A program made the position numbers and the translations under genes. Below are positions 2,263-61,459 of a stretch of DNA of 63,081 nt, in pieces. The stretch spans positions 1 to 63,081 of IMG/VR virus record IMGVR_UViG_3300040810_000410, one strand, 5' to 3'. The DNA comes from a virus (taxonomy: Duplodnaviria > Caudoviricetes). Within the stretch, counting starts at the first letter, position 1, and every line of letters begins with the position of its first letter. The notes below the pieces were generated by a model. It did no database searches and was not told where the DNA came from. It saw only the letters and a list, made by a program, of their open reading frames with translations.

Positions 2263-2333
2263 AATGTTATCCTTTTGTTTTACGTTTGGTTAATGTTTAA
2301 TGATAGATACTCTAAGGAATACCCATCAGTAAA

Positions 2334-2366
2334 GAGTGGTACTACATCGCGCCCCACTCAAGGCGC
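2334..2366 (-). other. Predicted H-type RNA pseudoknot
   Basis: Minus strand reads GCGCC-TT-GAGTGG-GGCGC-GATGTAGTA-CCACTC (S1 5 bp, L1 2 nt, S2 6 bp, L3 9 nt). Confidence 0.55.
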
Positions 2367-2800
2367 AATATCAAGGCTTAGTCGCTTATAGGTAGTGACT
2401 GTTGTGATTAATAATCCTGAAGCCTTACCTTTCGTTCAGCTAAGTTTATTCGTCAGAATTCCATAGGATACTTGATTAGCAAGCAGAGGATTAATAACAC
2501 GCAAGTATAACCTAAAATTGATTATCCTTGATGTTAACAGATAGAGGAGTGCTAGTTGTAGCTAGTGAATGACCTTTAAACGCCCATCTGTTTCCGAGCT
2601 GGATTCATGCAAGGTCTAGTCTCATGCTAAACCGAGAATCCTACTCATAACGAACAGGTTGCGAATGGAGAAGTGGTTACTGTTAATTCAGACGGATTCC
2701 TCGATATACGAGTGTATCCCCACCATTGGCTATGTTATCCTGCCGTCAACTGTTTTAGTGCCTAACATTGGCTGTCAATAGCTTAGAGTGCTATCGCAAG
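2367..2800 (+). ncRNA. Candidate structured non-coding RNA
   Basis: No ORF of 60 aa or more; many nested helices, several with G-U pairs that form only on the + strand. Confidence 0.35.
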
Positions 2801-2832
2801 GGCGTCGTTGAACTCCCCAACTCATGCTGCAT

Positions 2833-46996: not shown

Positions 46997-48355
46997 CTAA
47001 ATAGAAGCTCGCTCCTTAACGATTCCCCAAGGATCACGCTCACGGATTCTGTCATCACCGTGGTAATAACAAACCCAGTTCTCACGTTCAACCATGGCAT
47101 TCAATACGTACTCTTCCTCGCGGTACTCAAAGCCACCAAAGGCAGTCACTAGACCACGCTTCGAAGTCTTACCACCAGCAATAGGATCCTTATACACGTC
47201 AATCCATTCACCGTTAATACGAGCTGCACTACATTTCATAGCCCAACCTAAGGTATCACGATCGATCTTCTGAAGAAGACCACCGCCCATACCGAAAGCA
47301 ATATTGTCGATTGATAATTTAGAATCAACCATACGTTGCATTATACGCACAATTGAATCTTCGTCAACCCCATCACCTTGGATTACTCGAATGTGATCAG
47401 GTAGAACTTTGAAACCTTTCTCATTGGTACGGTGTCCAAATAGTTTCATTAGTTCCTGAATGACTTGTACTGGAGTTGTCACTGGGTCACCTGAGTCTGG
47501 ACGTATAACAAGAGTGCCACCTACTTCTAATAGCAGAGGTTCTAGTTCCTTCCACATCTTTAGTGCTTCCCAAATGTTATACGAGTCGGATACACAAGCA
47601 AAGATCTTACCTTCACCACCGTTCTTTCTAATGAAAGTCTCGTACATCTTCTGCTCATTCTCACGACCCCATGAGGTTACTGTGGAATGTTCAGTAGCAG
47701 GGATACTAAAGCCAGCCATGACACCACGGTAGTTATCTCGTACATACTTGATAGCCTCTAGTGTATCAGTACCCATGAATTGAGTTAAGTGACCAGCACC
47801 ACCAGCAGCCGCTGACTCTCCAGAGGAAACACCACGTGCTCCAAAGTCATGCAGTTTGAACGGAAGTGTGCTCATGTCAGCACCAGTAATCTCCATGAAC
47901 TCAGCGATGCGAGTCTTAACATAGCGACTACGAGAGGCTACAGTACTAGGGTACCATACCATTCGTAGGAATAACGTCTCGAAGAAGGATGTTAACCAAG
48001 GATACTTAGGGTCAGTGTTGACTATTGATGCCACAGGGGTAGACGGTTCGACTACTGTTCCCTCTGGTACACCACAGACTCGCACAGGGAAACCCTTGCC
48101 ATGGTAATCTTCTAGTAAATCCCACCATTCATCATTGAAAGGTACACCGTGTTCCTCAGCAATCTCTTGTAACTCTGCGATGTTAAACGCAAATACATTA
48201 CCAGAAATCAGCTCTACGAAGTCATGAATACCTAGGACTACCACAGGATAGTTACCTTTTCTCGCTTCAATATAACTGTAGATATGCTCAGTTCCTTCTG
48301 GATACTGTTTGTAATGTGATACTTTGTAGCTATCTGCCATTAATAAAGGGTTCAT
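46997..48355 (-). CDS. nadV: Nicotinamide phosphoribosyltransferase (NAMPT)
   Basis: DSYKVSH, LHDFGARG, IPATEHS, VSDSY, IRPDSGDP, IQGDG, FGMGGGLLQ. Confidence 0.95.
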   Translation of the reverse strand: MNPLLMADSYKVSHYKQYPEGTEHIYSYIEARKGNYPVVVLGIHDFVELISGNVFAFNIAELQEIAEEHGVPFNDEWWDLLEDYHGKGFPVRVCGVPEGTVVEPSTPVASIVNTDPKYPWLTSFFETLFLRMVWYPSTVASRSRYVKTRIAEFMEITGADMSTLPFKLHDFGARGVSSGESAAAGGAGHLTQFMGTDTLEAIKYVRDNYRGVMAGFSIPATEHSTVTSWGRENEQKMYETFIRKNGGEGKIFACVSDSYNIWEALKMWKELEPLLLEVGGTLVIRPDSGDPVTTPVQVIQELMKLFGHRTNEKGFKVLPDHIRVIQGDGVDEDSIVRIMQRMVDSKLSIDNIAFGMGGGLLQKIDRDTLGWAMKCSAARINGEWIDVYKDPIAGGKTSKRGLVTAFGGFEYREEEYVLNAMVERENWVCYYHGDDRIRERDPWGIVKERASI

Positions 48356-49350
48356 TCTTTTGCTCCTCCTGCTATCGAAAGCAGTCGTTGTGTTATTAAG
48401 TTATGGTTAAAGAATAGTAGAGTCTTCTCGTGTAATACATCGGTCAGGTCTACCCACTCTAACGATTCTGTCTCTTCACCATCAGGGTTCAACTCAAGTT
48501 CTTCCTCAGGGTGAATTACAAATAAATAGTTGACACCTAAGGTACGTGTACCTATGTCATCTATGTTCTCTTCAATTGCTCTAGTGATACACTTGGCTCT
48601 ACCAGTAGCAAGTAAAGAAGCTAAGTCCACATCAGATTCCTCTAACACTTCTCTCATGCAGCCATCTAATGTAGTCTCAGTATTCTGGAGGTAACCACCT
48701 AGTAAACCTAACTGACCTTTACCTCGGAAACCTTTTCGTTTACCTACGAGAAGTTTATCACCTTGTACTATCACAGCAAAGCTTACAGGTTCCATAGGAT
48801 TACCAAATGGGTGACCCTCTTCCTTCGCTTTCATACTTTCCATAGTTCCATGGTACTCGTCGATTAAACGTACGACATCATGGTGTTCCTCAAGGTACTT
48901 CTGAATACCATCAGGTAATAATGATTCCACTGTCCATAGGGAATTAGTATACCAAGCATGACGAATCTGAGTAGCAGAGATATTAACATCATCTAGTACT
49001 TTCACTGGGTAAACTAAGTGCTCACGATACCACTGCTCATCCTTAGGATTAGTATATAGTGTTACGTTAGCTGGATTCTCTTCAATGTTATTAACCAAAG
49101 CAATCACGTTGCTTTCCCATTCGTCATCTGTAGGGCAGTCTTTCATAGGCACAATAATTAAACCTTCGAACCTATCTCTGATAAACTGAATGCGTTCTTC
49201 AGCAGTGAAAGGGTTCTTGAAGTCTGGTAACTTGTTAATGCTACCTACGACTACAATAGTCTTATCATTCTCTTCTAGTGAACGCTCGATTAAACTTACG
49301 TGTCCATTGTGTAACGGCTGGAACCTACCGATAATTAAACCTACTTTCAT
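48352..49350 (-). CDS. Bifunctional NMN adenylyltransferase / Nudix hydrolase (NadM-Nudix, NatV-like)
   Basis: GRFQPLHNGH, NPFTAEER, ISATQIR; Nudix box GGYLQNTETTLDGCMREVLEES. Confidence 0.92.
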   Translation of the reverse strand: MKVGLIIGRFQPLHNGHVSLIERSLEENDKTIVVVGSINKLPDFKNPFTAEERIQFIRDRFEGLIIVPMKDCPTDDEWESNVIALVNNIEENPANVTLYTNPKDEQWYREHLVYPVKVLDDVNISATQIRHAWYTNSLWTVESLLPDGIQKYLEEHHDVVRLIDEYHGTMESMKAKEEGHPFGNPMEPVSFAVIVQGDKLLVGKRKGFRGKGQLGLLGGYLQNTETTLDGCMREVLEESDVDLASLLATGRAKCITRAIEENIDDIGTRTLGVNYLFVIHPEEELELNPDGEETESLEWVDLTDVLHEKTLLFFNHNLITQRLLSIAGGAKE

Positions 49351-51099: not shown

Positions 51100-52158
51100 T
51101 TAAGATTCGTCTGTAACGAACTGGATGTACCAATCGTTTACATCGCTAATCGTGACGTACTTCTCCCACTCACCATCGTGACCACGACGAGCAAAGACTA
51201 AGTTGTCATGCTTTTCTTGGTACTCAAGGAAGTAGAACTCACCTCGGTAGCACTTATTGTTAGACTTACGTTCAAGGATGTAAGGCTTGTCACGATCTAC
51301 AGGGAAGTCCTTAGCTGTTGCTATGAACGTATGTAAACCAAACCCTTCTTTATGCCATACTCGTACATCAAAGTGATTACCAATCTGTGGTACGTACTTA
51401 GGTTCTTCAAAGGTAACAGTATTCTTCTTACCTGTTGCTACGAAACCAGCGTCCACTAGTTTCTTGTCGTTACGTTTAACTTCCTCAAGAATCTCGTAGC
51501 GACACGCTCGACCTTTCTCATTGTTGTAATCGCTAGGGATAGCTACTACATCACGAGGGTTAATCTTAAGTACTACCATACGACCACCACGACCAAAGCC
51601 CTTAGCATAGTTATGAGCAGCAAAGTGAAGACCAGCGCTACATGTACGGTCTTTATCTTCATCCACAGCATTACGTGGCATCTCAACGACAGCACCAACA
51701 GAGTTATCCATCGTTCCTGTATGGTGGTCAGTGAAGTCCTGACGTACACTCTTGTATGCTAAGAAGTGACCGTCCTCTGTGATAGGTAACTTAGAAGCCT
51801 CAAGGAAATCATACAGTTCATCAACTGCACGCTTACTTGGGTTCTCCATTAGGTTCTCAAGGAACGCTAACAACGGTTTAGCATCGAAGCCTTCTTTAGC
51901 CATCGTAATGATACGACGAGACAGAGAAGACTTCACTAGTTGACCATCATAGTAAACTTCACTATCTTTTAGTTCAGCCTTAGAGCCATCTAAAGCTTGT
52001 GTTATTACTGTCTTCAAATCAATAATACGAGTGGCTTCTTCCAATTTACCAGCTTTAGTTAACTCAACGATCTGTTGGAACGCTGGATGACTATTGTGTG
52101 CTGTATGAAACTTACCTCCTGATTGAAATGAGATAGTTGTACCTGTGTAAATAAACAT
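51100..52158 (-). CDS. rIIB: rIIB-like protein
   Basis: FLENLMENPS, ITEDGHFLAYK, TCSAGLH, VVAIPSDY..KGRACRY. Confidence 0.88.
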   Translation of the reverse strand: MFIYTGTTISFQSGGKFHTAHNSHPAFQQIVELTKAGKLEEATRIIDLKTVITQALDGSKAELKDSEVYYDGQLVKSSLSRRIITMAKEGFDAKPLLAFLENLMENPSKRAVDELYDFLEASKLPITEDGHFLAYKSVRQDFTDHHTGTMDNSVGAVVEMPRNAVDEDKDRTCSAGLHFAAHNYAKGFGRGGRMVVLKINPRDVVAIPSDYNNEKGRACRYEILEEVKRNDKKLVDAGFVATGKKNTVTFEEPKYVPQIGNHFDVRVWHKEGFGLHTFIATAKDFPVDRDKPYILERKSNNKCYRGEFYFLEYQEKHDNLVFARRGHDGEWEKYVTISDVNDWYIQFVTDES

Positions 52159-52167
52159 ATAGTTCTC

Positions 52168-54225
52168 CTAATGATTTTCTGTGATTAATTTAACAAATGT
52201 GTCTATGTTCTCTTGGTTACTTTGTTTATTCCAAGAGGACGTAATCTGACGTACTAGCCTATGTATCGGCTCGTATTTTTCCTTCAGCTTCTTAACCTTC
52301 GGGTTCAACGTTGGTGTATACTCAAGAGCTTTCTTCATGATGATCCTGTGTAACCTATCGGTGTCCAAATCATCATGGAGCGTAGTCTGCTTAAGAATGT
52401 AAGAAGCATAACGAACGTACGCAGCGATACTCTTGTCCCGTAGAACAGGGAGAATCGAGCGTTCTAACTTGTTGACTCGGTGCATACTAGAGAGTAACTG
52501 TCTACGATTCCTCTGTTCCTTATGTATTTTTATGATGTCTGGTATGAAGGATTTCAAGACATCATCTGTAAGTATCTCCATGCCTTTACCCAACTTAGCG
52601 ATAGTCTTAGCACGAATAAAGTACAGAGGTTTATCGAGGAAGTGCATTAAGCCTGATCTAAGCAGTACTCTTATTTGTAGGTCAGTCTTTATCTGCGCAC
52701 CATGTATCTCTAAGTAATAACCGTCCGTAGGGATATCAGTCTGCTCCTCCATGTGATAACGGAGAGTACCCTCCTCAGGTATATTGTTGCTATCTTTAAC
52801 ACGAAACACCTGATTAGGTTCAGACCTATTTTTATCTTTAGGAGTCGGAGGTGCTTTAGGTTTAGGCACAGGTTTACCCAAGATACTAGAAAGTAGGGCT
52901 GGTTTTACATTGAGTTCTTCTTCGCAGTCCTTAATAGCCTGTGACACCCTATCATCATAAGTTGCTTTAGGTGCCGGTGGGACATGAACAATTACCACCT
53001 TACTTAGATCGTGTGCTGAGTGATTCTCGTTAATAAATTGAGAGAAACCTATGCCTAAATCCATCACGTAGAACTTAAGAGTACCATCAATGACACCACG
53101 CATCTGCGCTCCAGTTGATCTATAGACATTAGCGTAACGTCTCTGGACAGTCCTTAAAGGTAATCCAGCTACGCTTCTGATGTAACCATTGCGCCATACA
53201 TTCCAAGGAACTTTTTCCTTATTCCACGTAAGCACTGTGTAATCATTAATCAAGCTACCATTGGCATCATAAATAACCTTACGTGCCTCGAAGCTTGTAG
53301 TACACTTGTCTAATTGATTCTGCAAACCTTGTACGTATTCCCTACGTATGCGGTGTAGCACTTCAGTGATGTACTTCTTAGTTCTCGGAGTCATCTCCAA
53401 GTGTTCCCTTGATGGAGGGATATCTACACTCCCAATCGGTACTTTAATGGTTAATCCTTTGTTGAATATAGAACGTAAAGAATAATCAAACTCACCTGAG
53501 TCTAACTTGTACGCCACGTTGCCCATCACAACGAAATTCTTGGATCTCCAATCGTCGTTAGTAGTGTAGAAGTAATCCTGTGTCTCCCAACCATCAGGTA
53601 GTTTCTTGAAGGTAACAGTACCCTCACCACCAGTGATCTTAGGTTTCACAGGGAAGTAGCGCAACTGAATTGGAACCTGTTTAGTGAACTCTGGTACATC
53701 ACCCTCGTCAAACGAGAAGGATACACGTAAGCCACTAGACTCCTTTGATTCCTCTTCAGCTACTTTAGTAACCTGCGGTTCCCCTTTGTCCTTGAAACAC
53801 AACCACGTGGTCTTAATCCCTCCGTGGAAATTCTCGACCATGAAGGTATCAGTCATTGTGAATGGGGTCTTACTGCCCAAACCAAAGCCACCTATGAGGT
53901 CATTAGTTTCTTCCTTGGTACTCGCACCAACATTCGTGTAGATGTGCTCAAACTTATCGTGGGGAATCCCTGTCCCGTAGTCACGAATAGCAAAAGTCTT
54001 GTCTAACCACGAAGGCAGATGTAAGTCAAAGGGCGTGTCAGCCTTCCCTGCTTCTACGTGAGCATCCCATGCATTCGCAGATAGCTCCCTGATGACAGCC
54101 GCTGGTTTATTTGTGTACATCTTACTGATCAAGATATCGTACATCTTAGCATTCATTTCGAATCCAAAGGCGTTCGCTTCTACTCCCTGTACTTGAGCAG
54201 ATTGATGTATATTCTGTATTTCCAT
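52168..54225 (-). CDS. rIIA: rIIA-like protein (GHKL ATPase N-terminus)
   Basis: IRELSANAWDAH, IRDYGTG, GGFGLGSKTPF, PPSREHL; adjacent to rIIB. Confidence 0.88.
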   Translation of the reverse strand: MEIQNIHQSAQVQGVEANAFGFEMNAKMYDILISKMYTNKPAAVIRELSANAWDAHVEAGKADTPFDLHLPSWLDKTFAIRDYGTGIPHDKFEHIYTNVGASTKEETNDLIGGFGLGSKTPFTMTDTFMVENFHGGIKTTWLCFKDKGEPQVTKVAEEESKESSGLRVSFSFDEGDVPEFTKQVPIQLRYFPVKPKITGGEGTVTFKKLPDGWETQDYFYTTNDDWRSKNFVVMGNVAYKLDSGEFDYSLRSIFNKGLTIKVPIGSVDIPPSREHLEMTPRTKKYITEVLHRIRREYVQGLQNQLDKCTTSFEARKVIYDANGSLINDYTVLTWNKEKVPWNVWRNGYIRSVAGLPLRTVQRRYANVYRSTGAQMRGVIDGTLKFYVMDLGIGFSQFINENHSAHDLSKVVIVHVPPAPKATYDDRVSQAIKDCEEELNVKPALLSSILGKPVPKPKAPPTPKDKNRSEPNQVFRVKDSNNIPEEGTLRYHMEEQTDIPTDGYYLEIHGAQIKTDLQIRVLLRSGLMHFLDKPLYFIRAKTIAKLGKGMEILTDDVLKSFIPDIIKIHKEQRNRRQLLSSMHRVNKLERSILPVLRDKSIAAYVRYASYILKQTTLHDDLDTDRLHRIIMKKALEYTPTLNPKVKKLKEKYEPIHRLVRQITSSWNKQSNQENIDTFVKLITENH

Positions 54226-55010: not shown

Positions 55011-55296
55011 AGTCTCCCATGATTATCGCAGCATCCCTGTAGATACTTACACCATTGTCAAATATCACACGATCCGCAGTTATCTTATCGACTCCCCATT
55101 CCAAGTCAGGTCTACTCTTTGGAAAACCTATGCAAGTCTCAGGGTAATAACTAGGTTGTGCTAGTTCTACCTTTGGAGTAAACACAAGACTGTGCGCTGA
55201 GTTACCTATGAACACAGCCAACGCTATAATAAAGAGGAAACCTAGTACTTGGTTCTTATATAGTCTATCCATAGACCACCACCTTAACGTTGACAT
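55000..55296 (-). CDS. Membrane-anchored hypothetical protein
   Basis: One TM helix; probable start MDRLY. Confidence 0.6.
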   Translation of the reverse strand: MSTLRWWSMDRLYKNQVLGFLFIIALAVFIGNSAHSLVFTPKVELAQPSYYPETCIGFPKSRPDLEWGVDKITADRVIFDNGVSIYRDAAIIMGDCDA

Positions 55297-55741
55297 CAGG
55301 AAGGTGCTTAACCATCTGTGTCATTACGTAACCCCAATCACCACCACCGATACCACAGCCAATCATTGGAAACCAAATAGTTTCACCAACGTACTGTTCG
55401 TTAATCAACTTCAGTGCCGCAGGGAATATGCTTGGTATAAAGTCAGCACCTGTTTGATACTGAGTATAAATGTTTAAGCATTCAAATGAATCGATAGGTT
55501 TCAATGCACCATTAATGCGAGCCTGAGTTACCTGTGCTGTACTAAAGTCACCTAGCTTCTTCACTGCACCCTTTGGTGACCAGCGTTGGTCTGCTAGTGG
55601 AATCTGAGGAAACTTACTAGCTAACGCACCAGCTATCCCTGAACCCATAGTATGGAAACAGTTACAACCATGAGCTATTATCTTAGCTTCACCGCTTAAT
55701 GCTAAGGCAATCAAGTCACCTTTAATTATTTCAAAAGACAT
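55265..55741 (-). CDS. Macrodomain (ADP-ribose-binding / hydrolase) protein
   Basis: KGDLI, HGCNCFHTMGSGIA, FPMIGCGIGGGDW. Confidence 0.88.
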   Translation of the reverse strand: MSFEIIKGDLIALALSGEAKIIAHGCNCFHTMGSGIAGALASKFPQIPLADQRWSPKGAVKKLGDFSTAQVTQARINGALKPIDSFECLNIYTQYQTGADFIPSIFPAALKLINEQYVGETIWFPMIGCGIGGGDWGYVMTQMVKHLPDVNVKVVVYG

Positions 55742-58382: not shown

Positions 58383-59627
58383 TTATAAAGTGCTGTTCCA
58401 TTTAGTTGTCTGATTAGTAACAGAAGTTTCTACAATTTCGATTACTACTTGAACATCATCTGAATTCTTGTAAGCATGTTTGTTACCACGGATAGCTATT
58501 AAGTCATTATTGTTAAACATTAGGGTTCTCGTAACGTACGGTGCATCCTTATCTTCTAGCGCCTTATAAGCTGTCCATGACATGTGTTCTTCAGCACCAT
58601 CCTCGTAAAACGCATCTTCATCTTCATCTTTATACTCTTTACCTATTAATGGGTTAGGGTACTTAACTGTGATACTCACGATATTATTTATCATTGAACC
58701 TAACTCGTTAACTAATTGGTAGGGTTTTCCACCATCCTCAGTATTCGGGATGAGCTGATCTACTCGTACCATGGTCTTAACTTCAGGACGTAATGTAGGT
58801 ACGTTAAGGATTGCAGTGATTTCTTCAAGAGACTCATCTGGATACTCTGCCCATTCTTTGATAATCTCATTCATCACATCGAAGCTTACACCGTAACGCT
58901 TAGAGTAAACAATACAAGAAGCCTCTTGATCTTCTGTTAAACCATGAGCCTTACATAACTGTTGTACTACTTGTTGCTCAACACCATCGTAGATGTACAT
59001 GTATCTCATACGGCCTGGGCGGTCTGTAAGGAAATCACTTAGCATGTAGTGAGAGTTATCAATTAGTACGATCAAGCGTTTACGATTGTTTGTACCTTGG
59101 AAGAAGTTAAGCATTTCATCTTGACGATCAGCAGCAATTGCAAGACGATTATGTCTTGAGTCACCTTCATCATCAGAACCTTTTAGTTTACTGATGTGCT
59201 TAAGGAATTCATCAAAGATGATAGTACATTCTTGAATACTGTTAAGGAACTCAAGGTACTTAGGATCTGTACAGAATGAATCAGATACATCGATCACTGG
59301 TTTACCTTGGGCAATAGTTTGGTGGGCTAGTACAGCAGACAATAGAGATTTACCTGCACCTTTCTTACCGAATAGACCTACACCTAAAGCCTGAGGACTA
59401 TTAGAGTAAGCTTTCATGATACGTTCTGAACGTGCTTCAGCAGAACCGAAGATCGTCGCTGGTAATTCCACTTGGTCTGTCTCTTTCTCTAAGTAGAAAC
59501 CGATCATTGGATTAAAGGCTACCTTGTAGTAACCAGCAGGTACTGTATCAACTACTGAGCCTTCTTGGTGAATGAATGGGAATACATTAGCACCAGAGAT
59601 ACGGTATTTAGTTGAAGTGTTAGACAT
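58383..59627 (-). CDS. AAA+ ATPase (true start probably 59627)
   Basis: Walker A GKKGAGKS, Walker B IIFDE, arginine finger DRPGR; GAGGA RBS before MSNTSTK. Confidence 0.88.
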   Translation of the reverse strand: MSNTSTKYRISGANVFPFIHQEGSVVDTVPAGYYKVAFNPMIGFYLEKETDQVELPATIFGSAEARSERIMKAYSNSPQALGVGLFGKKGAGKSLLSAVLAHQTIAQGKPVIDVSDSFCTDPKYLEFLNSIQECTIIFDEFLKHISKLKGSDDEGDSRHNRLAIAADRQDEMLNFFQGTNNRKRLIVLIDNSHYMLSDFLTDRPGRMRYMYIYDGVEQQVVQQLCKAHGLTEDQEASCIVYSKRYGVSFDVMNEIIKEWAEYPDESLEEITAILNVPTLRPEVKTMVRVDQLIPNTEDGGKPYQLVNELGSMINNIVSITVKYPNPLIGKEYKDEDEDAFYEDGAEEHMSWTAYKALEDKDAPYVTRTLMFNNNDLIAIRGNKHAYKNSDDVQVVIEIVETSVTNQTTKWNSTL

Positions 59628-59663
59628 ATTGTTTTCCTCTTGTTTACGTTTGTTTAAATAAAT

Positions 59664-59792
59664 TGATCGTCGGGGCTGGATTGTAACCAGCGTCCTCCCC
59701 AATGTTTAATGGTTAGCCCCGAGGGAATCGAACCGCTCGTCACAACCATTGGGCTAAAGGTGGGGCGCTCTGTCATGCTGAGCTACCCGACG
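59664..59792 (-). ncRNA. tRNA-like cloverleaf with a nested tRNA-like insert in the anticodon loop
   Basis: Perfect acceptor (CGTCGGG/CCCGACG), D (GCTC/GAGC), anticodon (CCCCA/TGGGG) and T (GCTGG/CCAGC) stems; the 59-nt anticodon loop contains TTAGCCC...GGTTCGATTCC...GGGCTAA-CCA. Confidence 0.7.
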
Positions 59793-59858
59793 TTAATCTT
59801 TCTGCTTAAGATAGGGCACCATCAGAGATACCCTAGATTTAAAAAGAAAGGAAGTTAA

Positions 59859-60180
59859 TTACTTAACGCATTCATCATACATCCAAATGCCACCGTTGTC
59901 AACACATTTCTTTTCCAAAGTTTCCTGTTGTTCCTTTGGAAGTTCTTTGTGTTGCTCAGGTGTGATCTTTGTATTTACTAGAACGCATTCAGCTTTATCA
60001 ATTGGATCACTTGAAGAAGGATCGCATGTTAAAACTCGAGGAACCTGTATCTCAATCTTAGGTTCTTCTGGAGGTAAACACAGGATATACCCCAAGTATT
60101 AGTAATGCCCCTACTATAGGATCATAGTCAAAGGCAGCCCAACAGCAGTATAAGACTACTATTATGAATACAGATTCCAT
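59859..60180 (-). pseudogene. Membrane protein apparently split by a 1-nt frameshift at a G4 run (60090-60093)
   Basis: A 40-aa ORF with GGAG RBS (ATG at 60180) joins the 78-aa ORF in frame if one G is removed. Confidence 0.5.
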
Positions 60181-60190
60181 AAGTTACTCC

Positions 60191-61459
60191 TTACTTGCTA
60201 ACTGTTTTAGCGTTGCTTAGTGTACCAAGTTTATCCATTACGCCTAGTTGCAACAATGAATTCATTGCGTCAGTGTTACCACCAGCACCACCACCTAAGA
60301 TAGTCAGTTGGCTAGGCATGTTCATGTTCTCTACAGCACGAGAGTTAACAGTAGCAATATGCTCTTTCATCTCGAACTCACGGAACAACTTACCAGCTTC
60401 TTGCTTCTTATCAATAGCGTATGCTTCAGCGTCAGCTAGTGTAGTGATTACCTTAGCTTCTTCAATAGCAGCCAATGCTTCCTGAGCTTTCTGCTTAGTA
60501 GCTTCTTCAGCAGCCGCAGTTAACTCGATAGCTGTTTCTTTCTGCTTAGTCGCAGCGATTACCGCTAGTTGCTTATCACGCTTAGCTTCTTCAATCTGAC
60601 GAGCCGCAGCAGCTTTGGTTTTGTATTCCATTTGTGCTACGTTCTTCTTACCTTCAGCAATTACTTGTTGCTCAGCGTAGTATGCTTTGTTCGCATTAGC
60701 TTTAGCAGTAATGATTGCCATCTCAGCATCACGCTTGTCACTGATTTGTTTCAATGTTTTCGGTTCAAAGTCCCAAGCTTTCAAGTCAAACTGTGTTACC
60801 GCTAGATTCCAGCGATCAATGATAGAATCAGCAGTCTTAGGTTGACCATCTGTACCCAAGACAATCTCAGGTACATCACGGTTCTGATACTCAGGCTTAC
60901 CTTCTTTATCAACACCAACTTGTACACGCTTTGATACTAACTTGGTTTCATACAGACCGTTATTAGCTTGGTACGTTGCGTTACTAATGAACTCTGAGCG
61001 TTTAGTAGCGTAAGCTTCTTCAGATTTCAACAGACCAGCCGTAAGGTTTAATACCTTAGGGAACTCTTGGTTAAGTAACTTAGTACGTGCACCTTCCTCT
61101 GAACGGAAACGATTGTGGAACTTAAGCATTGAGTCTTCATCAGTAGGTAACGCTACGTTAACCATACCACAGACTACACCTTCACCACCATCTTGGTAAC
61201 GCACTCGAACACCGTCGTTCTGTGCAAAGCTACATACATTGTCTTCACCAGCACCGAAATCCTTCGAGATAAAGTCAGGATACGTAGTTGTCTTACCGAA
61301 CATAGGGAAGTATAACCCAGGCTCGAACTTAACACTCATGCTACCGTTAGGCTTCTGAATGACTGTACGGTAACCAGCATCATTAATACCTACGTTCAAA
61401 GCTACTACTGTAAGACCAACGATACCTGCGATAGCACTAATAATTAAAGATTTATTCAT
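60191..61459 (-). CDS. SPFH / band-7 domain membrane protein
   Basis: N-terminal TM, GYRTVIQ...EPGLYF, long Ala/Glu coiled coil. Confidence 0.8.
   Translation of the reverse strand: MNKSLIISAIAGIVGLTVVALNVGINDAGYRTVIQKPNGSMSVKFEPGLYFPMFGKTTTYPDFISKDFGAGEDNVCSFAQNDGVRVRYQDGGEGVVCGMVNVALPTDEDSMLKFHNRFRSEEGARTKLLNQEFPKVLNLTAGLLKSEEAYATKRSEFISNATYQANNGLYETKLVSKRVQVGVDKEGKPEYQNRDVPEIVLGTDGQPKTADSIIDRWNLAVTQFDLKAWDFEPKTLKQISDKRDAEMAIITAKANANKAYYAEQQVIAEGKKNVAQMEYKTKAAAARQIEEAKRDKQLAVIAATKQKETAIELTAAAEEATKQKAQEALAAIEEAKVITTLADAEAYAIDKKQEAGKLFREFEMKEHIATVNSRAVENMNMPSQLTILGGGAGGNTDAMNSLLQLGVMDKLGTLSNAKTVSK

What the first reader, a model, noticed from the sequence alone, without database searches (positions are those of the whole stretch)
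59664..59792. Nested tRNA: a tRNA-like cloverleaf whose anticodon loop contains a second tRNA-like acceptor/T-arm/CCA module
Seen (minus strand): CGTCGGG-TA-GCTC-AGCATGACA-GAGC-G-CCCCA-[59 nt]-TGGGG-AGGAC-GCTGG-TTACAAT-CCAGC-CCCGACG-A-TCA. All four stems pair perfectly with canonical spacing. However, the T-loop is TTACAAT, the D-loop lacks GG, the 3' end is TCA, and the anticodon loop is 59 nt rather than 7. The insert (59757-59710) reads TTAGCCC-AATGGTTGTGAC-GAGCGG-TTCGATT-CCCTC-G-GGGCTAA-CCA. That is a 7-bp acceptor-like helix, a canonical GGTTCGATTCC T-loop and a CCA end, with no D or anticodon arm. AATGGTT can alternatively pair with AACCATT, giving a second possible fold. The insert is far too short for a group I intron. 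Inference: intact stems with altered loops suggest selection for shape rather than decoding. Options are a tRNA mimic or decoy against tRNA-targeting defences (PrrC/RloC-type anticodon nucleases, PARIS AriB), a precursor processed by RNase P/Z to release a mini-tRNA, or a processing signal for the AAA-ATPase mRNA that starts 37 nt downstream.
Basis: partly seen in the sequence, partly recalled or inferred. Interest (0 to 1): 0.85.

Follow-up and report, generated by a model that had tools for sequence, protein, structure and literature searches.

The report
Broken tRNA nested inside broken tRNA
In the leader of an early gene of an uncultured 63-kb estuary phage, a shortened tRNA gene copy sits inside the anticodon loop of a second, disabled tRNA gene; it looks more like the product of DNA insertion in a fast-changing tRNA slot than a purpose-built tRNA decoy.

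Summary
On the minus strand, 59792-59664 forms a cloverleaf with 21 Watson-Crick pairs at canonical tRNA spacing. It is the only such hit in the window, and 0 of 45 shuffles gave one. Its 59-nt "anticodon loop" holds a canonical T-loop 11-mer, a 7-bp acceptor-like helix and CCA. Default ARAGORN and Rfam find no tRNA.

- **Outer shell.** A covariance model of the element aligns the shell end to end with ordinary tRNAs of related phages (36-40 bits). It is an ordinary tRNA frame with its anticodon lost, T-loop positions 56-57 changed and no CCA.
- **Inner piece.** With its own flanks, it aligns best with the CAT-anticodon tRNAs of relatives. It lacks the D-stem 3' strand and the anticodon arm, and its T stem is irregular.
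- **Competing fold.** The inner acceptor helix competes with a thermodynamically favoured hairpin (pair probability 0.01 against about 0.9).
- **Variant.** A roughly 97%-identical phage contig keeps both shell halves but has a different insert, 29 nt longer, the size of a whole tRNA.
- **Relatives.** They carry ordinary tRNAs and assorted tRNA mimics in this slot. None has the nested form, so there is no covariation evidence.

Best reading (0.5): a polymorphic tRNA-in-tRNA insertion product, non-decoding, possibly still cut by RNase P. A selected mimic or processing signal remains possible.

The parts
59874..59902 (-). sigma-70-like promoter (TTGACA, 17-nt spacer, TATGAT), about 80 nt upstream of the element, inside the 3' end of a 78-aa ORF
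   Evidence: One search gives 11 of 12 matches. My whole-window scan found only 4 sites with at least 11 of 12; shuffles gave a mean of 1.8. It is a consensus match only; transcription is not shown.
59786..59792 (-). outer acceptor stem, 5' strand
   Evidence: 7 Watson-Crick pairs with 59668-59674. Pair probability 0.96-1.0.
59767..59783 (-). outer D arm (4-bp stem, 9-nt loop with U18 G19)
   Evidence: Aligns with the D arms of relatives' tRNAs. Pair probability 0.85.
59761..59765 (-). outer anticodon stem, 5' strand (CCCCA)
   Evidence: 5 Watson-Crick pairs with 59697-59701, in the tRNA register. Pair probability is only 0.2, because GGGG runs compete.
59702..59760 (-). 59-nt insert in place of the anticodon loop: a truncated CAT-type tRNA copy with its own 5' and 3' flanks
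   Evidence: Alignment to relatives' CAT-type tRNAs including flanks gave z = 5.3, 5.3 and 3.3. Three Arg-type tRNAs gave z = 0.8-1.4.
59751..59757 (-). inner acceptor-like helix, 5' strand: 3 leader bases plus the first 4 bases of the tRNA copy
   Evidence: 7 Watson-Crick pairs with 59713-59719. The register comes from the alignment with L003 tRNA-Met. Pair probability 0.01.
59739..59750 (-). 12-nt linker with GG (D-loop remnant). Its first 7 bases pair alternatively with 59708-59714, which include the CCA.
   Evidence: Aligns with the D loop of CAT-type tRNAs. The rival helix has probability 0.68-0.98.
59721..59738 (-). inner T arm with the canonical GGTTCGATTCC loop region and an irregular stem (bulged C)
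   Evidence: Pair probability 0.93-0.99.
59710..59719 (-). inner acceptor-like helix, 3' strand, followed by CCA
59702..59709 (-). trailer TTAAACAT of the inner copy
   Evidence: The same trailer follows the CCA of the weak CAT tRNA of L006. The 8-mer occurs 14 times in the window against 3.7 expected.
59697..59701 (-). outer anticodon stem, 3' strand (TGGGG)
59675..59696 (-). outer variable loop (5 nt) and T arm. The loop reads TTACAAT; the otherwise identical T arms of relatives' tRNAs read TTCGAAT.
   Evidence: Pair probability 0.85.
59664..59674 (-). outer acceptor stem 3' strand, discriminator A, and TCA in place of CCA
   Evidence: Relatives' tRNAs encode CCA.
59719..59758 (-). the 40 nt replaced by 69 other letters in a near-identical phage contig (run X2)
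   Evidence: table 5 and table 8, record 3. It is one contig at depth 2.7.
58383..59627 (-). downstream gene: ATPase, 414 aa
   Evidence: phrog_2376, E = 3.1e-58. 31 homologues at E <= 1e-20.

Best explanation
The element is a tRNA gene inside a tRNA gene, and neither can decode.

The shell is an ordinary phage tRNA frame. Its anticodon has been replaced by an insert, T-loop positions 56-57 are changed (CG to AC) and its CCA reads TCA.

The insert is a copy of the lineage's CAT-anticodon tRNA locus, taken with a few bases of its own leader and its TTAAACAT trailer. It has since lost the 3' strand of its D stem and the whole anticodon arm.

The arrangement arose at the DNA level, by insertion or gene conversion in a fast-changing tRNA slot upstream of the early ATPase gene. 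It is still polymorphic: a near-identical phage keeps the shell but carries a different insert, 29 nt longer, the size of a complete tRNA.

As RNA the element is part of the ATPase leader. Host RNase P may still cut at the outer and inner acceptor-like helices, leaving paired halves as in Mycobacterium smegmatis YrlA.

Shown: the anatomy, the homology of shell and insert to tRNAs, and the polymorphism. Inferred: the insertion mechanism, transcription, any RNase P cleavage, and the absence of a selected function.
For: - **Shell is a tRNA frame.** The model R1, built from this element, matches relatives' normal tRNAs end to end, with the insert treated as a local gap. Scores: L003 tRNA-Met 40.4 bits, L004 tRNA-Arg 39.0, L004 tRNA-Met 36.1. 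Their T arms equal the shell's except at positions 56-57.
- **Insert is CAT-type.** With its flanks, the insert aligns best with the 3 CAT-type tRNAs of relatives: 45.5, 44.5 and 38.25, with 0, 0 and 1 of 300 shuffles reaching these scores. The 3 Arg-type tRNAs gave z = 0.8-1.4.
- **Flanks are shared.** Shared bases include TTTA before GCCC (L003), and ACC(C)TTT and CCA...TTAAACAT (L006).
- **Signs of decay.** The inner T stem is irregular. The genome has 0 tRNA genes. Rfam tRNA scores 12.9 bits.
- **Polymorphism.** Run X2 record 3 matches 59809-59759 with 0 differences and 59718-59377 with 11. It replaces the 40 nt in between by 69 letters.
- **Ancestral tRNA slot.** L006 has tRNA-Arg, a weak CAT tRNA and tRNA-like pieces upstream of its ATPase. 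L003 has an RNA there ending in a T arm, acceptor strand and GCCA.
- **No nested homologue.** None was found in 7 distinct related loci or 2 whole related records.
- **Precedent for internal cleavage.** RNase P cleaves an internal 7-bp acceptor stem, CCA is added and the halves stay together in M. smegmatis YrlA (PMC4201824, passages read).
Against: - All 21 shell pairs and all 7 inner acceptor pairs are Watson-Crick. A relic that had picked up 3-4 changes in 28 unpaired bases would be expected to have some in its 42 paired bases (rough probability 0.03-0.16).
- Two mutually exclusive 7-bp helices, one of which hides the CCA, are each unlikely by chance. They could form a switch.
- Elsewhere the genome is tightly packed, yet it keeps this 231-nt gap.
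- Relatives carry what look like purpose-built tRNA mimics. L006 2312-2402 has a 12-bp arm capped by UUCG and also has A56. L004 has YrlA-like units. A selected mimic here would therefore not be out of character.
- The 69 letters of the variant were not shown, so "a complete tRNA" rests on length alone. That contig has depth 2.7. Four of its 11 differences cannot be placed and may lie next to the joint.
- The similarity to CAT-type tRNAs rests partly on motifs common to all tRNAs. An unrelated Bacteroides tRNA-Arg, picked out by a 21-mer match, scores higher (50.0).
Confidence: 0.5

Rival explanations
1. The element is a selected, trans-acting, non-decoding tRNA mimic. The shell gives a stable tRNA-shaped body. 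The insert presents either a tRNA top half (acceptor helix, T arm, CCA) or a long arm capped by a T loop. It would bind or titrate a host or defence factor that recognises tRNA shape or the CCA end, or act like a Y RNA.
For: - All 28 stem pairs are intact. The fold has z = -2.71.
- A promoter-like site lies directly upstream.
- Related phages hold non-decoding tRNA mimics in or near the same slot. These are the L006 mimic with a UUCG-capped arm and A56, YrlA-like units in L004 (40.1 and 27.8 bits) and a composite in G001 with two T arms.
- The early region is rich in likely counter-defence genes: RIIA/RIIB, NAMPT with NMNAT-Nudix, and a macro domain.
Against: - There is no homologue and so no covariation.
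- The insert is swapped in a near-identical phage.
- The insert carries its donor's flanks, as DNA capture would leave them.
- The inner T stem is irregular.
- The tRNA-like inner fold has probability 0.01.
- There is no anticodon loop for anticodon nucleases to bind.
- YrlA did not match at E <= 10.
Confidence: 0.22
2. The element is a selected cis-acting processing or stability signal. RNase P and the tRNA 3'-end enzymes recognise the acceptor/T-arm stacks and cut the primary transcript. This separates the promoter-proximal leader from the ATPase mRNA, or sets that mRNA's 5' end and half-life.
For: - The element lies between the promoter-like site and the ATPase start, and no terminator-like site was found.
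- A 7-bp acceptor helix next to a T arm, followed by CCA, matches what bacterial RNase P recognises (established knowledge).
- Known non-tRNA substrates include phage regulatory RNA precursors, mRNAs and t-elements (PMC4919922, passages read).
- The ATPase leader motif is shared with the leader of another leftward gene.
- Earlier AI notes of this scan report CCA-tailed minihelices in phage leaders. These are leads only.
Against: - A simple minihelix would be enough for this job; a nested double structure is not needed.
- 4 of 7 relatives have no tRNA-like element directly upstream of the ATPase.
- The insert is variable.
- The inner helix is thermodynamically disfavoured.
- No RNA data exist.
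Confidence: 0.17
3. The element is a working tRNA gene with an intervening sequence that is removed. Two versions are possible: tRNA-Gly(CCC) with a 34-nt intron, as ARAGORN draws it, or a UUU-anticodon tRNA with an insert after position 37.
For: With introns allowed, ARAGORN calls 59792-59667 as tRNA-Gly(CCC) with the intron at 31/32. The first seven loop bases read CCTTTAG, that is UUU followed by A.
Against: - The ARAGORN model needs an intron inside the stem-loop junction, U at position 37, no base 26 and a 24-nt variable arm.
- 59 or 34 nt is far too short for a group I intron, and Rfam finds no intron family.
- No bulge-helix-bulge motif is evident.
- No RNA ligase or splicing enzyme appeared among the 28 of 74 ORFs scanned.
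- T-loop positions 56-57 are changed.
- Position 33 would be C.
- The insert is itself a tRNA fragment.
Confidence: 0.03
4. Chance complementarity in an intergenic region.
For: With G-U pairs allowed, cloverleaf geometries with a free loop length occur about 0.3 times per shuffled genome. One such hit lies in the ATPase coding sequence.
Against: 0 of 45 shuffles give an all-Watson-Crick hit. The shell aligns with real tRNAs at 36-40 bits. The insert holds the only canonical T-loop 11-mer in the genome.
Confidence: 0.01

Closest known systems
YrlA-type bacterial and phage Y RNAs (Rfam RF02553; Chen et al. 2014, PMC4201824, passages read)
   Same: Both are non-decoding RNAs built from tRNA parts: T arm, D arm and acceptor stem. 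In M. smegmatis an internal 7-bp acceptor stem is cut by RNase P, CCA is added, and the two halves stay together. A related phage locus (L004) has partial YrlA matches.
   Different: YrlA is circularly permuted (T arm, closed acceptor, D arm) and sits on a Ro-binding stem. Here the order is the normal tRNA order, with a second tRNA piece in the anticodon loop. There was no YrlA match at E <= 10, and no Ro gene was seen among the ORFs scanned.
Non-tRNA substrates of RNase P: phage P1/P7 C4 RNA precursor, plant mitochondrial t-elements, MALAT1 mascRNA (review PMC4919922, passages and reference list read)
   Same: In both, acceptor/T-arm-like folds embedded in longer transcripts serve as cutting signals.
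   Different: Those are single modules with shown cleavage. Here there are two nested modules and no RNA data.
tRNA gene clusters of large phages, with pseudo-tRNAs and small stable RNAs (T4, T5; recalled, not read here)
   Same: Both are hypervariable phage tRNA slots that hold intact, odd and decayed tRNA genes next to each other.
   Different: I know of no described case of one tRNA gene inside the anticodon loop of another. Searches listed none.
Nested 'Russian-doll' tRNA genes of candidate-phyla-radiation bacteria, and phage tRNA mimics with nested cloverleaves
   Same: In both, a tRNA or tRNA-shaped body sits in the anticodon loop of a foldable tRNA shell, and the notes interpret this as DNA insertion cassettes or as mimics.
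   Different: There the inner tRNA is usually complete and of the same identity as the shell. Here the inner copy is truncated, the shell's identity is unknown, and the host is a 63-kb phage.
Archaeal intron-containing and split tRNA genes (PMC4090602, search listing and abstract start only)
   Same: The tRNA gene is interrupted in the anticodon loop.
   Different: Those depend on a bulge-helix-bulge motif and a splicing endonuclease. Neither is evident here.
Engineered tRNA scaffolds that carry a foreign RNA in the anticodon stem (Ponchon and Dardel; recalled, not read here)
   Same: The topology is the same: a tRNA body holds and stabilises an RNA inserted at the anticodon stem.
   Different: Those are man-made. 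Nothing shows that the natural shell here is kept for that purpose.

Membership tests
canonical tRNA (Rfam RF00005) | four-stem cloverleaf with canonical spacing | tested here: met
   The outer shell has 7/4/5/5 bp, all Watson-Crick. It aligns end to end with relatives' tRNAs.
canonical tRNA (Rfam RF00005) | 7-nt anticodon loop with U33 and an anticodon | tested here: not met
   The loop is 59 nt and its second base is C.
canonical tRNA (Rfam RF00005) | score at or above the family cut-off (29 bits), and detection by ARAGORN | tested here: not met
   12.9 bits, covering model positions 8-63 only. Nothing reached the gathering score. ARAGORN at default settings found 0 genes.
canonical tRNA (Rfam RF00005) | T loop with C56 and purine 57 pairing or stacking with G18 G19 | tested here: not met
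   The shell has A56, C57 and U18. The insert has the canonical T loop but no D arm.
tRNA with group I intron | intron of about 200 nt or more with a group I catalytic core | tested here: not met
   The insert is 59 nt. No intron family appeared in Rfam at the gathering score or at E <= 10.
tRNA with archaeal-type intron | bulge-helix-bulge motif at the exon-intron junctions | tested here: not met
   The junctions are 2-3 nt on the 5' side and 8-11 nt on the 3' side, with no 3-4-3 motif (reading). The ARAGORN intron model is non-canonical.
YrlA / Y RNA-like (RF02553) | match to the family model; permuted order T arm, closed acceptor, D arm | tested here: not met
   No YrlA match at E <= 10 in 59500-59950. 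The order of parts is the normal tRNA order.
YrlA / Y RNA-like (RF02553) | Ro/Rsr-binding helix and a Ro protein partner | not tested
   No Ro-like family appeared among the 28 of 74 ORFs scanned. The host is unknown.
tmRNA tRNA-like domain | detection as tmRNA, a G3-U70 pair and a tag reading frame | tested here: not met
   ARAGORN found no tmRNA. beta_tmRNA scored 6.8 bits against a cut-off of 84. Position 3-70 of the inner helix is G-C or A-U depending on register.
RNase P minihelix-type substrate | about 7-bp acceptor helix stacked on a T arm, with 3' RCCA | tested here: inconclusive
   The parts are present in the sequence. However, the T stem is irregular, one base separates the helices, and the helix has probability 0.01 in the thermodynamic ensemble.
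RNase P minihelix-type substrate | cleavage by RNase P | not testable with these tools
   This needs an in-vitro M1 RNA assay or mapping of RNA ends.

The most novel reading that the evidence does not exclude
The shell is a maintained docking site that accepts exchangeable tRNA-type cassettes in its anticodon loop. That would be a phage counterpart of the tRNA-carrying insertion cassettes noted in candidate-phyla-radiation bacteria. The mini-tRNA version here would be kept as a switchable, CCA-presenting top-half mimic: one fold shows the CCA and the other hides it. It would be released by RNase P and would act on a host factor or a defence toxin that targets tRNA acceptor ends.
Probability: 0.12. 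Interest if true: 0.8.

Novelty: new variant of a known kind. Interest (0 to 1): 0.45.

Why it matters
Phage tRNA regions are known to be variable. A tRNA copy lodged in the anticodon loop of another tRNA gene, with the insert differing between two near-identical phages, points to a way tRNA genes are gained, swapped and destroyed that standard tRNA finders miss. The anticodon loop appears to act as an insertion or conversion hotspot.

The finding also flags a small phage group whose early region holds many kinds of non-decoding tRNA look-alikes. That group would be a good place to test what such RNAs do. If the element is only a relic, it is a warning: perfect cloverleaf stems alone do not show selection for shape.

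Tried and rejected
**Homologue searches with no result**
- Exact-match scans of viral contigs gave 0 hits for the inner 3' part, the outer 3' part and the outer D arm.
- blastn of 1 kb against isolate phages gave no match.
- The single-protein locus search in viral contigs found none.
- Earlier-findings look-ups by place, by sequence and by relatives gave nothing.

**Copy of a host tRNA 3' end (att site)**
- A 21-mer scan of 185,579 species genomes gave one hit, a Bacteroides finegoldii tRNA-Arg(CCT).
- I take this as chance similarity among tRNAs, not as a host or att signal.

**Mobile hairpin family**
- The insert ends have no other copy in the window.
- They have none in the related loci.

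**Homology of the insert to the L006 tRNA mimic**
- I thought I saw it by eye. The alignment score was 31.25, and 28 of 500 shuffles reached it, so I dropped the idea.

**Elbow-specific decay of the shell**
- I dropped this argument after one search showed that U18 G19 also occurs in a normal tRNA-Met of a relative.

**Internal promoter made by the TTACAAT loop**
- It matches TAAACA-17-TACAAT at 9 of 12 positions, with no TG. This is too weak to use.

**Other negative or unusable results**
- The ARAGORN intron model for tRNA-Gly(CCC) is contrived.
- tmRNA-like reading of the insert: 6.8 bits only.
- Sequencing runs: no RNA holder is listed, so expression could not be examined.
- Runs X3, X4 and X5 do not cover the element.
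- The R1 model search of G001 and G002 through the genome search returned nothing. It even missed the tRNAs that cmsearch found on the loci, so that blank carries no weight.
Full report
**What is there**

The window is a complete 63,081-bp virus record with direct terminal repeats.

The outer cloverleaf has a 7-bp acceptor stem, 2 nt, a 4-bp D stem with a 9-nt loop, 1 nt, a 5-bp stem, 59 nt, the other strand of that stem, a 5-nt variable loop, a 5-bp T stem with a 7-nt loop, then the acceptor 3' strand, A and TCA. All 21 pairs are Watson-Crick.

- A strict scan for this geometry, with the anticodon loop allowed 7-150 nt, found it as the only all-Watson-Crick hit in the window.
- One further hit, with G-U pairs allowed, lies in the ATPase coding sequence.
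- In 45 shuffles the G-U-allowed pattern came up 13 times and the all-Watson-Crick pattern never.
- The 59-nt loop holds the only GGTTCRANTCC in the genome, a 7-bp helix flanking it, and CCA.

**What the standard detectors say**

- ARAGORN with default settings finds no tRNA or tmRNA in the window.
- Rfam finds nothing at gathering scores. In the permissive mode it finds no tRNA, YrlA or intron match in 59500-59950.
- The tRNA model alone gives 12.9 bits against a 29-bit cut-off. That match runs from the outer D arm to the inner T arm.
- With introns allowed, ARAGORN calls a tRNA-Gly(CCC) with a 34-nt intron at 31/32 and a 24-nt variable arm. It recognises the outer acceptor, D and T arms, but the rest of that model is contrived.

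**Folding**

- The whole element folds with z = -2.71; 2 of 200 shuffles are as stable.
- In the ensemble, the outer acceptor, D and T stems have pair probabilities of 0.85-1.0.
- The outer anticodon stem has only 0.2.
- The nested structure scores -41.8 kcal/mol, against -47.4 with the outer stems enforced.
- The rival helix buries the CCA.
- The inner T stem needs a bulged C.

**Context**

- The element fills most of a 231-nt gap in a tightly packed genome with 74 ORFs of 45 aa or more.
- A sigma-70-like site matching 11 of 12 positions lies about 80 nt upstream. It is one of 4 such sites in the window, against 1.8 in shuffles.
- No terminator-like site follows.
- The next gene, 37 nt downstream, is an ATPase (phrog_2376).
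- I scanned 28 of the 74 ORFs. They give a T7-like replication set, ribonucleotide reductase, thymidylate synthase, NAMPT with an NMNAT-Nudix protein, RIIA/RIIB and a macro domain.
- No RNA ligase, CCA-adding enzyme or Ro-like protein was among them.

**Relatives**

- The nearest isolate, an Alteromonas phage with 37.6% ATPase identity, has coding sequence right up to the ATPase.
- From 31 ATPase homologues I built alignment A1 from 28 of them.
- With it I fetched 2 loci from viral contigs, out of 44 pattern matches. I also fetched 6 from metagenome contigs, out of 113.
- L003 and L007 are the same sequence, which leaves 7 distinct loci.
- None of the 7 has a nested cloverleaf, by a relaxed geometric scan or by a covariance model of the element.

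What the slot holds varies between loci:

- **L006:** a tRNA mimic, tRNA-Arg(TCT), another tRNA-like piece and a weak CAT-anticodon tRNA of 36 bits. A small ORF and the ATPase follow.
- **L003:** about 740 nt of non-coding DNA, ending in an RNA bounded by an acceptor-like helix, a T arm and GCCA.
- **L008:** an unrelated, strongly folded RNA with z = -6.24.
- **L010:** non-coding sequence with no clear fold, z = -1.64.
- **L004 and L009:** coding sequence upstream.
- **L005:** the contig starts just upstream of the small ORF that precedes its ATPase.
- **L004, downstream of its ATPase:** tRNA-Met, tRNA-Arg and YrlA-like permuted tRNA-like units.

This is a fast-changing slot for tRNAs and tRNA look-alikes.

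**The shell is an ordinary tRNA frame**

The model R1, built from this one element with the nested structure, matches relatives' normal tRNAs end to end. It treats the insert as a local gap.

- L003 tRNA-Met scores 40.4 bits, L004 tRNA-Arg 39.0 and L004 tRNA-Met 36.1.
- Two of those T arms (L003 tRNA-Met and L004 tRNA-Arg) read CTGG-TTCGAAT-CCAG. The shell reads CTGG-TTACAAT-CCAG.
- The shell's D loop has U18 G19, as does the 67.5-bit tRNA-Met of L003.
- Those tRNAs encode CCA where the shell has TCA.

The shell therefore differs from a working tRNA in only a few places. That weakens the argument that intact stems with altered loops show selection for shape.

**The insert is a truncated CAT-type tRNA with its own flanks**

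- Aligned with 12-nt flanks, the insert scores 45.5 against the weak CAT tRNA of L006 (0 of 300 shuffles), 44.5 against L003 tRNA-Met (0 of 300) and 38.25 against L004 tRNA-Met (1 of 300).
- The three Arg-type tRNAs of relatives give z = 0.8-1.4.
- Shared letters extend outside the tRNA. They include TTTA before GCCC, ACC(C)TTT on the 5' side, and CCA followed by TTAAACAT on the 3' side.
- The alignments place the missing part at the 3' strand of the D stem and the whole anticodon arm.
- Caveat: much of the score comes from motifs common to all tRNAs. An unrelated Bacteroides tRNA-Arg, picked by a 21-mer match, scores 50.0.

**A near-identical phage has another insert**

Contigs of four public runs were laid on 58400-60400.

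- One 465-nt contig of run X2 (depth 2.7) matches 59809-59759 without a difference and 59718-59377 with 11 differences.
- The 40 nt in between are replaced by 69 other letters. That stretch covers the inner 5' strand, the linker and the T arm.
- The tool does not print those 69 letters.
- No difference is listed in the shell's T arm or 3' end.
- Four of the 11 differences lie too near a piece end to be listed. They may sit next to the joint.
- The variant's loop would be 88 nt. Subtracting the 10-11 nt of linkers seen here leaves about 77 nt, the size of a tRNA with CCA. This is an inference from length alone.

**Reading**

The simplest account is at the DNA level. A copy of the lineage's CAT-type tRNA locus, with a little of its leader and trailer, was captured in the anticodon loop of a neighbouring tRNA gene. 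The shell then lost its T-loop identity and its CCA. In this phage the inner copy later lost its middle.

How the capture happened is not shown. Repair of a break in the anticodon-loop DNA, or gene conversion between co-infecting relatives using the shell halves as homology arms, would both fit. The genome encodes two endonuclease VII/HNH-like proteins.

As RNA, the element would be part of the ATPase leader. RNase P might still cut at the two acceptor-like helices and leave paired halves. This has been shown for the internal 7-bp acceptor stem of M. smegmatis YrlA (PMC4201824, passages read). Other non-tRNA RNase P substrates are listed in PMC4919922 (passages read).

I give the relic reading 0.5.

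**What keeps the rivals alive**

- All 28 stem pairs are perfect.
- There are two mutually exclusive 7-bp helices, and one of them hides the CCA.
- The gap is retained in a compact genome.
- Relatives have tRNA mimics that look purpose-built. One example is L006 2312-2402, with a 12-bp arm capped by UUCG and A at T-loop position 56.

A selected trans-acting mimic (0.22) or a cis-acting processing signal (0.17) therefore remains possible. A decoy for anticodon nucleases is unlikely because no anticodon loop exists. A spliced tRNA is very unlikely (0.03).

**Literature**

Full-text searches found no description of a tRNA gene inside the anticodon loop of another tRNA gene in a phage. The searches were for nested tRNA, anticodon loop, intron and bacteriophage, for tRNA-like, anticodon nuclease and decoy, and for a tRNA gene inserted in the anticodon loop of another tRNA. 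I saw listings and abstract starts only.

Earlier AI notes of this scan report nested tRNAs in candidate-phyla-radiation bacteria, nested cloverleaves in a large phage, and CCA-tailed minihelices in phage leaders. I used them as leads and did not test them.

Noticed in passing
L004:5180-5720: An array of repeated units downstream of tRNA-Met and tRNA-Arg. There are five copies of an ACAGCAA motif. At least three units are permuted tRNA-like modules (T arm, closed acceptor hairpin, D arm). Two of them give partial YrlA matches of 40.1 and 27.8 bits.
   Followed up: partly
L006:2312-2402: A cloverleaf tRNA mimic. It has a 6-bp acceptor followed by CCA, a T loop TTAGATT (A at position 56, as in the shell here), and a 12-bp 'anticodon' arm with four G-U pairs capped by a UUCG tetraloop. 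Fold z = -2.21.
   Followed up: partly
L013:528-648 (minus strand; record G001, next to tRNA-Arg): A composite RNA with two canonical T arms. An outer acceptor-like helix and T arm enclose a permuted T arm, closed-acceptor and D-arm module. It does not match YrlA at E <= 1.
   Followed up: partly
L008:2820-2985: A strongly folded RNA directly upstream of the ATPase homologue: a long closing stem with a multi-branch interior. Fold z = -6.24, with 0 of 200 shuffles as stable. It has no Rfam match.
   Followed up: no
L003:2257-3001: About 740 nt without an ORF upstream of the ATPase homologue. It includes a roughly 190-nt stretch bounded by a 7-bp acceptor-like helix, a T arm with an irregular stem, and GCCA. 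ARAGORN does not call it a tmRNA.
   Followed up: partly
window 2263-2807 and 59628-59663: A 545-nt non-coding region lies at the head of the left-end leftward genes. Its last 40 nt share a leader motif with the ATPase leader: TTAAACA, then AAACGTAAA(A)CAA, then the ribosome-binding site.
   Followed up: partly
window, whole: The 8-mer TTAAACAT occurs 14 times against 3.7 expected, and 0 of 100 shuffles reach 14. Ten copies are on the minus strand and most are inside genes.
   Followed up: partly
window 46997-49350, 51100-54225, 55265-55741: The early region carries likely counter-defence or host-takeover genes: NAMPT plus an NMNAT-Nudix protein (NAD salvage), RIIB and RIIA, and a macro-domain protein.
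   Followed up: no
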